8,287 nucleotides of DNA from an uncultured bacterium (GTDB lineage: Bacteria > Krumholzibacteriota > Krumholzibacteriia > Krumholzibacteriales > Krumholzibacteriaceae), in the NCBI GenBank assembly GCA_965371515.1, contig CBDUYR010000086.1:1-8287 (forward strand), written 5' to 3'. A program made the position numbers. Shown piece after piece: positions 6,001 to 8,287 of this stretch. Numbering within the stretch: the first letter of the stretch is position 1; each line of letters starts with the position of its first letter.

Positions 6001-8287
6001 AGGAAAAGAACAGGGGAGCCCTCCGCGTTTATATATGAATATTCGGATTGTCGGCACGAATATTCATGCAATCAGCCCGACAGCTCCGTCCCCTGGTTCA
6101 TGATGTCCAGATAGCCGGCGTAGCTGAAAACCCGGTTGCGCTTGCCGGAGGTCAGTTCCCGTACGATCCCCAGGCCCTCCAGATTCCTCAGGCACTTGTT
6201 GACCGTGGCAGGCGCGATACCTGTCTTTTCCACCAACCAGCCGGAAGTCGTTAAATTTATGATATAATAGAATTGACGTAAACGCAAAGATGGCAAGGCT
6301 GACGGAGCCTGCAGAAGGCACAGTCATTTTGAGATCCTGTTTTACATCCGGGGGATTACTTGTGCAGCGACATATCAGGGGATTTTTTCTTTTATTCGCC
6401 GCCTTCACATCGATATCACTGATCACACCATCGATCCTGGCCGATGTAGAGCAGGTCCAGGAGAACGAGCTTCCCATTCATCTGACCGAAGAGGAGCTCA
6501 CGAGGCTCGATGAGATCGGGCTCGGGCACATATCTACGCTCCCACCAACGGTTCCTGTAAGGCAGTGTGCCGAGTGGGAGCCGGTGGAAGGAGTGCTCGT
6601 CAGATACAACACTGGATTCGGTCTTCCAGGTGAAATCCTCGCCGAGTACTCGGAAAATCTCATTGTCTATGTACTCGTTGCCGAAGACCAGGAAAGCAAC
6701 GCGTACAACGCCTTGTCGATCAGCGGAGTCAACATGGCGAATGTCGAGTTCATAATTGCAGCGACCAACTCCATGTGGACCCGCGATTACGGTCCGCAAT
6801 TCATTTTTGCCGATGGACTCTGGGGCATTGTCGATCACATATACAACCGTCCGCGCCCCGATGACGACCTCGTGAACTGGGTGCTGGGAACAGAGTGGTA
6901 CGCTGATGTCTACGGGACAGATGTGATCCACACGGGCGGCAACTACATGACGGACGGGCACGGCAGGGGATTTTCTACAGAACTCGTCTGGGATGAGAAT
7001 TCGGCTCTCACACCCGGGCAGATCGAGCAATATATGGAGGATTTCCTGGGCATCACGGACTATGTCGTCGTCCCCGACATCGCACCCGACGGAATCCACC
7101 ATATTGATTGTTGGGCGAAATTGCTGAATGAGGAGACGATACTGATCAAGGAAGTAGCGACCAACCACCCGCATTATGACTCTTTGGAGGCCAATGTCGA
7201 TTACCTGGAGACGCTTACCAACTGCTATGGCAGGCCCTATAATATTATCCGTGTATTCTGCGGGCAGTTGTGGAAAGACGAGGTCGCCGCATATACAAAT
7301 TCGATCATACTGAACGACAAGGTGTTCGTGCCGATCTTCGGCATCAGCACCGACGAGGATGCTCTCGACACATACAGGGCTGCCATGCCTGGCTACGAGG
7401 TTCTTGGATACGAGGGAACATGGCTGGATGACGACGCCATACACTGCAGGTCTATGGGGGTTCACGACAGGCATATGCTCGTCGTCGATACAGATCCCCT
7501 GCAGGATATTGAATTCAACGAGAGCGACTACCGTGTAACGGCGTTCATAGATGACAGGAGTGAAGTGGGGCTCGTCGGCGACTCGATTCTGGTCTTCTGG
7601 AGGCTTGACGGCGAGGATGATTTCAACGCCATGGCAATGCAGCCCCTTTCCCACCCTGATTCCTTTGAGGCATACATCCCGATGCAGCAGGAAAACTCGA
7701 ATGTTGAGTATTACATATTCGCAAAGGACATGAGCGGCCGGCGGCGCACAAGGCCTGCCTGCACTCCGGATGCGTTCTACAGTTTCTATACCGGAGAGAA
7801 TCGAGTCACGGACGTTGCAACCCCGGCTATGCCTTTTGTTCTCGAGCAAAACTATCCCAACCCATTCAATCCCACCACAACGATCCGGTTCTATCTTCCT
7901 GCCATGAAACACACAACCCTGGCCATATACGACGCGAACGGACGTGAAGTAAACCGGCTGGTTGACGGTGTTTGTGATAGAGGCTACCATACGGTGGAAT
8001 GGACAGGCAGGAACAGTGAGGGCAGGCCGGTGGGATCGGGCGTCTATTTCTATTCGCTGAGATCCGGGAGCGCCCATGAAACACGTAAAATGATATTAAT
8101 CAAATAATATTGAATATTACCTGTCCCTCCTGAAAACTCCATTCTGACGATACGTTAACCCTGAAGAGGCCTGACAAATGAGGGTTGGTAATCCATGAAC
8201 TGGAGATGTGTCTTGCGAGCGGCGGCCGTCCTGGCGCATATTCTCGCTCTCCTTGCTCTCCGGGCATATGATGTGAGAGGGGAGGAA

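What a model noticed while it worked through the whole genome (the two positions that open the first line are those of the whole stretch)
6329..8107. T9SS-secreted homolog of the Porphyromonas peptidylarginine deiminase (PPAD) in an environmental non-Bacteroidota bacter [...]
g02454 (592 aa) aligns over 434 residues with the P. gingivalis peptidylarginine deiminase and, like it, ends in a T9SS C-terminal sorting domain. Boldest reading: it is an extracellular protein/peptide citrullinating enzyme, so that PPAD, treated as a Porphyromonas speciality tied to rheumatoid arthritis, is one member of a large environmental family used by protein-degrading FCB-type bacteria. New: enzymology and ecology of secreted bacterial citrullination outside the oral pathogen.
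Evidence so far: swissprot.tsv: 38% id over 434 aa to PPAD (query 61-483, subject 39-458 of 556; E 3e-82) against 26% / E 2e-13 for the best agmatine deiminase. pfam.tsv: PAD_porph 108-376 (E 5e-34), FlgD_ig (CTD) 518-577. find_homologous_proteins on residues 60-490: 2749 proteins at E<=1e-40 among 7631 candidates; the 120 listed are 53-100% identical, 414-911 aa, most with PF13860/PF18962 tails; named ones come from Krumholzibacteriota, Eisenbacteria, Latescibacterota MAGs, annotated 'agmatine deiminase family'.
(Added by a program. Inside this text positions count along the whole contig: contig position 1 is position 1 of the stretch shown here. "Call 12" and the like, gene names such as g00115 and contig names such as C1 are that model's own, and its searches are not shown. 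The text may have been shortened before it was handed on; [...] marks where a part breaks off. The agent that wrote the report below was given it as the finding of a first reader that could run no searches.)

Follow-up and report, generated by a model that had tools for sequence, protein, structure and literature searches.

The report
Environmental PPAD family paired with gingipain
This sediment bacterium encodes a close relative of the gum-disease enzyme PPAD that likely converts arginine at peptide ends to citrulline outside the cell; its relatives across many sediment bacteria and archaea sit next to, or are fused with, gingipain-like proteases predicted to cut after arginine, so this famous 'virulence pair' is likely an old protein-digesting module.

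Summary
The ORF is 38% identical to P. gingivalis PPAD over its catalytic and Ig-like domains, and its model overlays PPAD (Z 51, rmsd 1.4 Å; agmatine deiminases Z ≤36). All five catalytic residues are kept, as are the carboxylate-binding R152/R154, which the five agmatine deiminases compared lack. Y233 is Gly. It most likely deiminates C-terminal Arg of peptides; this is untested. The family is large (693 clusters at 50% identity, E≤1e-30) and spans FCB-type phyla and Thermoplasmatota archaea; PPAD nests among environmental Bacteroidales sequences. The larger result is the coupling to Arg-gingipain-like (Rgp-like) proteases. Nine of 150 listed representatives are single-chain Rgp–deiminase fusions, not one clade (AU p 0.0016). 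Eleven of 79 loci have an Rgp-like neighbour. 53 of 55 Bacteroidales carriers hold one, against 38 of 146 non-carriers. The window's own branch is the exception: 0 of 10 genomes hold one, so its peptide source is open. The genome's T9SS has SprA, PorU and a PorV-family barrel, but no GldK over the cut-off. A few environmental homologues are already in print (Cummings 2022, Fig. S4); I found no report of the fusions or the linkage.

The parts
6350..6355 (+). Ribosome-binding-site-like GGGGGA, 6 nt before the likely GTG start
   Evidence: sequence; inference
6362..8107 (+). PPAD-family deiminase gene, likely 581 aa (592 aa from TTG 6329, 605 aa from ATG 6290). Residue numbers in this report count from TTG 6329.
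6362..6442 (+). Predicted Sec signal peptide (residues 12-38: basic start, hydrophobic core, ends ILA)
   Evidence: read by eye; no signal-peptide predictor was run; low pLDDT
6443..6535 (+). Short N-terminal segment, conserved among close homologues, in the place of PPAD's pro-peptide
   Evidence: consensus; weak alignment to PPAD 26-47; pro-peptide role is inferred
6536..7474 (+). Pentein alpha/beta-propeller catalytic domain. W150=W127, D153=D130, G204=G182, H258=H236, D260=D238, C261=C239, N324=N297, D369=D347, C373=C351 of PPAD
   Evidence: mapping; fold; PMC4487231 for the roles
6848..6856 (+). R174-P-R176 = PPAD R152/R154, the pair that binds the C-terminal carboxylate and the preceding carbonyl
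   Evidence: (120 of 120 rows); no Arg pair here in 5 of 5 agmatine deiminases
7070..7105 (+). Michaelis loop of the Gly type: G255 for Y233 and H257 for N235. D368 for T346 (outside the loop) goes with it
7475..7795 (+). Ig-like (IgSF) domain as in PPAD
   Evidence: model residues 66-489 align with PPAD 44-463
7853..8104 (+). T9SS type A C-terminal sorting domain (FlgD_ig-like form, shared by 67 ORFs of this genome)

Best explanation
The gene encodes a PPAD-family enzyme with intact catalytic and carboxylate-binding residues that is likely exported through the type IX route and likely converts C-terminal arginine of peptides to citrulline plus ammonia during extracellular protein digestion. 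Shown: fold, domain order, residues, sorting tail, and SprA, PorU and a PorV-family gene in the genome. Inferred from PPAD: C373 attacks the guanidinium carbon held by D153 and D260, H258 acts as acid/base, and R174/R176 grip the free C-terminal carboxylate, so internal Arg and agmatine would be poor substrates. At family level the substrates are likely made by an Arg-gingipain-like protease. That partner is fused to, adjacent to, or co-inherited with the deiminase in many lineages, so the Rgp+PPAD cooperation of P. gingivalis is likely an inherited protein-scavenging module. In this genome and its nearest branch that partner was not found, so other secreted peptidases, or neighbouring cells' Rgp-like enzymes, would have to supply the peptides. 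The benefit is inferred only: ammonia release, relief of product inhibition of Arg-specific proteases, or citrulline for the OTC/carbamate kinase route.
For: Sequence and fold: 38% to PPAD; Foldseek TM 0.94, rmsd 1.8 Å; VIA Z 51.3, rmsd 1.4 Å over 410 residues against Z 33-36 for agmatine deiminases. Residues: five catalytic residues in 143 of 143 representatives in the tree, R152+R154 in 133 of 143. R152 is indispensable and R154 favours peptides over free Arg in PPAD (PMC4487231; PMC4893104). Secretion: TIGR04183 tail; SprA, PorU and a PorV/PorQ-family gene over cut-off. The 67 CTD-bearing ORFs include C25, C1, M6, S8, M14, M28 and M1 peptidases. Coupling: 9 of 150 listed representatives are Propeptide_C25+C25+deiminase chains. 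The C25 part of one is RgpB-like (E 1e-91 against Kgp 5e-13). All nine keep D163, H211, C244 and W284 (D163/W284 roles in PMC4357240). The fusions are not one clade (p-AU 0.0016). An Rgp-like gene lies within 6 kb in 11 of 79 named loci, from Ignavibacteria, Zixibacteria, Lentimicrobium and archaea, with both loop types. Bacteroidales sample: 53 of 55 carriers hold an Rgp-like gene against 38 of 146 non-carriers. Own phylum: 18 of 22 against 2 of 39. Other immediate neighbours include M14 (4 loci), S8 (2), M1 and M54 peptidases, among 68 neighbours scanned.
Against: No activity was measured. Y233, which also binds the carboxylate and blocks C-terminally extended peptides in PPAD, is Gly here, with linked changes N235H and T346D, so specificity may differ. 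No Rgp-like protease was found in this 99.6% complete genome: its C25 genes are 22-26% identical to the fused C25s, the four that aligned lack D163, and no clostripain was found. None of the 10 genomes of the window's 23-leaf clade has one, though seven of these are of unknown completeness. No GldK over the cut-off, so the export machinery is non-canonical. The gene is patchy: 7 of 41 genomes of the family, 0 of 6 others of the genus. The window shows no peptidase neighbour. Co-occurrence counts are across kin and overstate independence. PPAD also lowers free arginine in vivo (PMC7847538).
Confidence: 0.72

Rival explanations
1. The Gly-loop subfamily has a more open active-site entrance and also, or mainly, citrullinates internal arginines of peptides or proteins (endo-deiminase), which frees it from an Arg-specific protease.
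For: In PPAD an extended peptide would collide with Y233 and R152; Y233 is Gly in 120 of 121 nearest homologues. The window's clade occurs in 10 genomes without an Rgp-like gene.
Against: R152 and R154 are invariant in the same set. Other Gly-loop enzymes sit next to D163-type Rgp genes (L043, L044, L050, L053, L055, L070, G054), which fits C-terminal substrates.
Confidence: 0.12
2. It acts mainly on free L-arginine at the cell surface, giving citrulline for ornithine carbamoyltransferase and carbamate kinase (ATP) or ammonia, in place of a cytoplasmic arginine deiminase.
For: Free Arg has the carboxylate that R152 binds. The genome has ArcC and OTC over cut-off, no ArcA (only a 258 aa DDAH-like protein) and no ArgG over cut-off. 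OTC lies beside the Rgp-deiminase pair in three related archaeal loci. PPAD depletes free Arg in P. gingivalis.
Against: R154, which favours peptides in PPAD, is kept. No phyletic complementarity: an ADI-family gene is in 9 of 22 carriers and 16 of 39 non-carriers, and ArcC matches in 61 of 61.
Confidence: 0.1
3. The chemistry is as in the best explanation, but the targets are the cell's own T9SS cargo proteins, whose processed ends are citrullinated to control release or surface charge, not food peptides.
For: 67 CTD-bearing ORFs. In P. gingivalis, loss of PPAD changes gingipain release, biofilm and vesicle formation (PMC7847538 passages).
Against: Archaeal members without T9SS keep the same protease pairing, and neighbours are digestive peptidases. 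This role and a nutritional one do not exclude each other.
Confidence: 0.2
4. It is an agmatine deiminase, as the databases name most homologues.
For: Same Pfam family; source names read 'agmatine deiminase (family)'; it is the only PF04371 gene in the genome.
Against: TIGR03380 aguA scores 58 bits against a cut-off of 382. It carries the Arg pair, IgSF, signal and CTD; the Arg pair is absent from the five AgDIs aligned, and AgDIs have no extra domains. No AguB or putrescine carbamoyltransferase over cut-off among the candidates scanned. The family separates from 5 AgDIs in the tree (0.969).
Confidence: 0.03

Closest known systems
Porphyromonas gingivalis peptidylarginine deiminase, PPAD (PDB 4YT9, 4YTG, 5AK7; PMC4487231 parts 1-3 of 8 read; PMC4893104 passages read)
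   Same: Domain order (signal, N-terminal segment, pentein, IgSF, T9SS CTD); fold Z 51, rmsd 1.4 Å; D130, H236, D238, N297, C351, W127, G182, C239, D347, R152 and R154 all kept.
   Different: Y233 to Gly, N235 to His, T346 to Asp; CTD of the FlgD_ig form, not alignable to PPAD's; host is a sediment bacterium with no recognisable Rgp and no GldK over cut-off.
Rgp + PPAD cooperation in P. gingivalis (RgpB, PDB 1CVR/4IEF; PMC9559808 and PMC4357240 passages read)
   Same: Relatives pair the deiminase with a C25 protease that keeps D163, H211, C244 and W284.
   Different: In the environment the pair occurs as neighbouring genes and as single polypeptides, also in archaea; in P. gingivalis they are separate proteins. 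The window's own branch lacks the partner.
pPAD clade of Cummings et al. 2022 (PMC8826395; passages and text of supplementary Fig. S4 read, the figure itself not seen)
   Same: States that pPAD genes are more widespread than thought; the figure text lists Caldithrix abyssi, Cloacimonas spp. and Lentimicrobium saccharophilum near P. gingivalis Q9RQJ2.
   Different: A handful of sequences used to set PADIs apart; in what I read there is no residue analysis, loop types, gingipain linkage or fusions.
Agmatine deiminases (AguA; PF04371, TIGR03380; PDB 2JER, 3HVM)
   Same: Same fold and catalytic Cys/His/Asp/Asn set.
   Different: About 21-26% identity, no carboxylate-binding Arg pair, single domain, act on agmatine.
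Bacterial PF03068 PADs (citrulassin PAD; bioRxiv 10.1101/2020.07.16.207027, passages read)
   Same: Bacterial peptide citrullination outside Porphyromonas is known.
   Different: Unrelated family, homologous to human PADs (human PAD4 scores Z about 20 against this model).

Membership tests
PPAD-type peptidylarginine exodeiminase | Pentein catalytic domain followed by an IgSF domain | tested here: met
   model 66-489 aligns with PPAD 44-463, Z 51.3, rmsd 1.4 Å, 410 residues
PPAD-type peptidylarginine exodeiminase | Catalytic D130, H236, D238, N297, C351 | tested here: met
   D153, H258, D260, N324, C373
PPAD-type peptidylarginine exodeiminase | R152 and R154 binding the C-terminal carboxylate | tested here: met
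   R174, R176
PPAD-type peptidylarginine exodeiminase | Michaelis-loop Y233 closing over the substrate C-terminus | tested here: not met
   G255. Filed therefore as a Gly-loop variant, not a strict PPAD. Y233 was not among the 18 mutants in PMC4487231, so its weight is unknown.
PPAD-type peptidylarginine exodeiminase | Clade with PPAD to the exclusion of agmatine deiminases | tested here: met
   261 rows against 5 AgDIs, FastTree 0.969; 78 rows against 3, SH-aLRT 100 on a long branch
PPAD-type peptidylarginine exodeiminase | Ca-independent citrullination of C-terminal Arg, exo far above endo | not testable with these tools
   needs an enzyme assay
T9SS cargo | Sec signal peptide plus type A CTD | tested here: met
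   TIGR04183 over cut-off; Pfam Por_Secre_tail just under; signal peptide judged by eye only
T9SS cargo | Host encodes the translocon and sortase (SprA, PorU, PorV) | tested here: met
   SprA 469 bits (cut-off 200), PorU 559 (420), PorV/PorQ family 204 (90); the strict PorV model scores 132 (250)
T9SS cargo | Host encodes the PorK/L/M/N ring and motor | tested here: inconclusive
Agmatine deiminase (AguA) | TIGR03380 cut-off | tested here: not met
   58.3 against 381.8 bits
Agmatine deiminase (AguA) | Single domain without the Arg pair | tested here: not met
Arg-gingipain (fused or adjacent C25 domains of relatives) | S1 Asp163, catalytic His211/Cys244, lid Trp284 | tested here: met
   40 of 40 C25 domains scoring 298 bits or more on the fusion profile; Asp in that column in 1 of 16 scoring under 200; numbering counted from 1CVR alignments
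Arg-gingipain (fused or adjacent C25 domains of relatives) | Cleavage after Arg | not testable with these tools
   needs an assay

The most novel reading that the evidence does not exclude
The Rgp+PPAD pair treated as a P. gingivalis virulence speciality is an ancient cut-and-citrullinate module of protein-degrading FCB bacteria and Thermoplasmatota archaea, repeatedly fused into one polypeptide. Secreted C-terminal citrullination would then be a routine, unrecognised step of protein turnover and ammonia release in anoxic sediments. The window's Gly-loop branch, which occurs without Rgp, may have changed specificity, possibly towards internal arginines.
Probability: 0.55. Interest if true: 0.8.

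Novelty: new variant of a known kind. Interest (0 to 1): 0.64.

Why it matters
Reviews to 2026 still list PPAD homologues only in Porphyromonas species (PMC13539308 passages), and its use to the bacterium is unclear (PMC6367333, start of abstract in listing). If the enzyme is one member of a family that is repeatedly fused to or encoded beside Arg-gingipains, its original job is tied to Arg-specific proteolysis, not to the host. That makes the question of why a microbe citrullinates peptide ends testable with enzymes of non-pathogens. C25 peptidases are over 40% of exported peptidase genes in one estuarine sediment and Arg-P1 substrates are among the fastest hydrolysed (PMC6752024 passages), so a coupled deiminase could affect nitrogen release there. 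Databases label these proteins 'agmatine deiminase', which hides the family. Natural Gly-loop, Tyr-loop and Arg-pair-less members give a ready panel for understanding exo versus endo specificity.

Tried and rejected
Agmatine deiminase: rejected. An Rgp-like partner in the window's genome: not found by two protein queries and a profile; no clostripain; two of the six C25 genes were too distant to enter the residue alignment. The idea that the Gly loop marks Rgp-less hosts: rejected for the family, since many Gly-loop enzymes are in Rgp-positive genomes; it holds only for the window's clade. The idea that the enzyme replaces ArcA: no complementarity. An apparent archaeal fusion in G410 (open frame listed as 1418 aa) is two tandem genes split by TAA and was not counted. 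A second paralog in this genome: not found. Plasmid collection: 28 records, none covering 80% of the query, the 25 listed at 23-28% identity. Promoter/terminator scan: no more than shuffles give. No RNA holder listed. Earlier scan notes: nothing by sequence or words. The Thermoplasmatota phylum sample was too sparse for a count: 3 of 81 genomes matched, only 7 candidates scored per genome. The combined Bacteroidales search scored 3 candidates per genome and was replaced. Literature searches that showed no report of fusions or linkage, judged from listings of the top 2-30 papers. Subscription journals and bioRxiv supplements are not covered, and Fig. S4 of PMC8826395 was seen as text only. No complex prediction was run.

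Full report
Observation. The frame 6290-8107 is open; TTG 6329 gives the 592 aa protein of the finding. GTG 6362, behind GGGGGA, gives 581 aa, the length and start of the nearest homologues. I number residues from 6329. Against P. gingivalis PPAD, fetched as L198, BLASTP gives 38% over 452 columns, residues 42-483. In PDB, PPAD scores E 7e-84 and the best other pentein 1e-15. The AlphaFold model (mean pLDDT 88) overlays PPAD with TM 0.94 and Z 51.3, rmsd 1.4 Å over 410 residues including the Ig-like domain; agmatine deiminases reach Z 33-36. The tail passes TIGR04183, falls just short of Pfam Por_Secre_tail and does not align with PPAD's own tail. Contigs of four sediment or seep runs from three studies lie on the gene with no indel listed.

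Active site. Roles are taken from PMC4487231 (parts 1-3 of 8 read) and PMC4893104 (passages). D153, H258, D260, N324 and C373 match D130, H236, D238, N297 and C351; W127, G182, C239 and D347 are also kept. R174 and R176 match R152 and R154, which hold the substrate's terminal carboxylate; R152 is indispensable in PPAD. Five agmatine deiminases from named plasmid records have no such pair, and aguA scores 58 of 382 bits. One departure is real: Y233 is Gly in 120 of the 121 nearest sequences, with N235H and T346D. This defines a Gly-loop subfamily beside the PPAD-like Tyr-loop one (97 and 137 of 261 tree rows, a set enriched for the window's relatives).

Host. The genome (99.6% complete) has this one PF04371 gene. 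It has SprA, PorU and a PorV/PorQ-family barrel next to PorU, and 67 ORFs ending in the same tail, among them C25, C1, M6, S8, M14, M28 and M1 peptidases.

Family. A phmmer scan of 50% cluster representatives gave 693 at E<=1e-30. The GTDB scan estimated about 2500 stored stretches with the motifs. The 79 loci kept include Krumholzibacteriota, Eisenbacteria, Zixibacteria, Ignavibacteria, Cloacimonadota, Gemmatimonadota, Bacteroidales and seven archaeal MAGs. In a FastTree of 261 catalytic domains plus 5 agmatine deiminases (left out: P0145, P0236, P0254, L141, L142 and duplicate loci) the family stands apart (0.969). PPAD lies in a 21-leaf clade (0.971) whose named members are mostly environmental Bacteroidota. 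In an 81-row IQ-TREE run its nearest rows are Lentimicrobium, though the smallest strongly supported set that holds it has 32 rows. The root sits on a long branch, so I infer no order of events.

Coupling to Arg-gingipain. This is the main new result. (a) Nine of the 150 listed representatives are single chains of C25 propeptide, C25 protease, Ig and deiminase; two more begin with a C25 remnant. Further database members repeat the architecture (P0270, P0273, P0274, P0278). Named cluster members are Ca. Cloacimonadota and, by a short C-terminal fragment only, Thermoplasmata archaeon M8B2D, a Thermoprofundales MAG (PMC6461988 passages). The protease part of P0159 matches RgpB at E 1e-91 and Kgp at 5e-13. 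Holding the nine fusions together is rejected (p-AU 0.0016; 78 rows, LG+G4), which points to repeated fusion or repeated splitting. (b) An Rgp-like gene lies within 6 kb in 11 of 79 named loci, many cut short by contig ends, plus one truncated case, and within about 5 kb in 5 of 53 double-positive Bacteroidales genomes (G142, G202, G221, G264, G337). (c) 40 of 40 C25 domains that score 298 bits or more on the fusion profile keep D163, H211, C244 and W284; 1 of 16 below 200 bits has Asp there. D163 forms the salt bridge to P1 Arg in RgpB (PMC4357240 passages). (d) Co-occurrence: Bacteroidales 53 of 55 carriers against 38 of 146 non-carriers; own phylum 18 of 22 against 2 of 39 (the six discordant genomes rechecked); 57 of the 79 named carriers at E<=1e-100. 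Kin are not independent, so the Fisher p values overstate. The pattern is nested: the deiminase seldom occurs without Rgp, while Rgp often occurs alone.

The exception. The window protein lies in a 23-leaf clade (0.971) drawn from 10 searchable genomes (G000, G031, G048, G061, G063-G067, G073). None has an Rgp-like match. Their best C25 hits are 27-33% identical and, with one doubtful case (L204), lack D163. Seven are MAGs of unstated completeness. The gene is patchy in the family (7 of 41). So for this gene the source of Arg-terminal peptides is unknown, and a shift in specificity cannot be excluded.

Mechanism. Shown: fold, residues, tail, partial T9SS, family linkage. Inferred: Sec and T9SS-type export, PPAD chemistry on peptides that end in Arg, release of ammonia and citrulline-ended peptides (0.72). 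Why cells do this is inferred only. M14 carboxypeptidase genes directly upstream in four loci and OTC beside three related archaeal pairs fit release and use of citrulline. But ADI-family genes are as common in carriers (9 of 22) as in non-carriers (16 of 39), and ArcC matches in all 61, so replacement of ArcA is not supported. Relief of product inhibition of Rgp would explain the fusions but is untested. Rivals: endo-activity (0.12), free Arg (0.10), agmatine (0.03); own-protein maturation as the role (0.2) overlaps with the best explanation.

Novelty. PPAD and its cooperation with Rgp are well known. Cummings et al. 2022 already note that pPAD genes are more widespread and list Caldithrix, Cloacimonas and Lentimicrobium sequences (PMC8826395, passages and supplementary figure text), so environmental homologues as such are not new. 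A 2026 review names only P. gulae and P. loveana. Seven searches (listings only, open-access library) showed no report of Rgp-deiminase fusions, gene linkage, archaeal members or loop types; closed journals may hold one. Verdict: a new variant of a known kind, interest 0.64. The boldest reading, an ancient cut-and-citrullinate module of sediment protein degraders, I put at 0.55, with interest 0.8 if true.

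Noticed in passing
L136-L140 (G003, G001, G008, G033, G050); P0144, P0178, P0202, P0211, P0232, P0246, P0248: A paralog subfamily keeps all five catalytic residues but replaces the R152/R154 loop with a Tyr-Pro-Trp-type insert. 15 of 261 tree rows lack the Arg pair. A candidate deiminase of different, perhaps internal-Arg, specificity.
   Followed up: partly
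L077, L080, L087, L090, L093, L094 and 29 of 106 Tyr-loop representatives: The loop state N231/T232/D235, described as the natural T2 allele of P. gingivalis PPAD (PMC13539308, PMC13201384 passages), is the commonest single state among environmental Tyr-loop representatives and dominates the clade around PPAD. T2 may be the older state.
   Followed up: partly
L067 / L193 (Thermoplasmatales MAG); L094, L196: Three-gene runs on one strand: Rgp-like, M14 carboxypeptidase, deiminase (archaeon); Rgp-like, S8 peptidase, deiminase (Bacteroidales).
   Followed up: partly
L078, L081, L192: Ornithine carbamoyltransferase lies about 1.4 kb from the Rgp-deiminase pair in three related archaeal loci; probably one event.
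   Followed up: partly
Bacteroidales sample: Close Rgp-like proteases (35-46% to the query) are in 91 of 201 sampled genomes, so Arg-gingipain itself looks far from Porphyromonas-specific.
   Followed up: partly
L017, G048:C131, G432:C25, G005:C2, L026: Relatives often carry two deiminase paralogs in tandem; in the window's clade an OmpR-type regulator gene follows in L017, L019, L116 and L117.
   Followed up: no
window 2088-4499 (+): Second CTD-bearing protein, 803 aa, with repeated propeller-like units and no catalytic family hit.
   Followed up: no
window 2-5929: Unrelated-looking neighbours: acyltransferase fragment (2-307, -), DUF5674 (503-844), an unassigned 117 aa ORF (829-1182), a lone DUF1214 piece (1298-1660), an unassigned lipoprotein-like ORF (4669-5202), an outer-membrane beta-barrel (5348-5929).
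   Followed up: no
window 8195-8287 (+): A further ORF with a signal-peptide-like start is cut by the contig end (read by eye).
   Followed up: no
phylum sample; G000:C29: Carbamate kinase matches in 61 of 61 genomes of the phylum while ADI-family genes match in 25; in this genome a DDAH-like gene lies about 2.7 kb from arcC.
   Followed up: no
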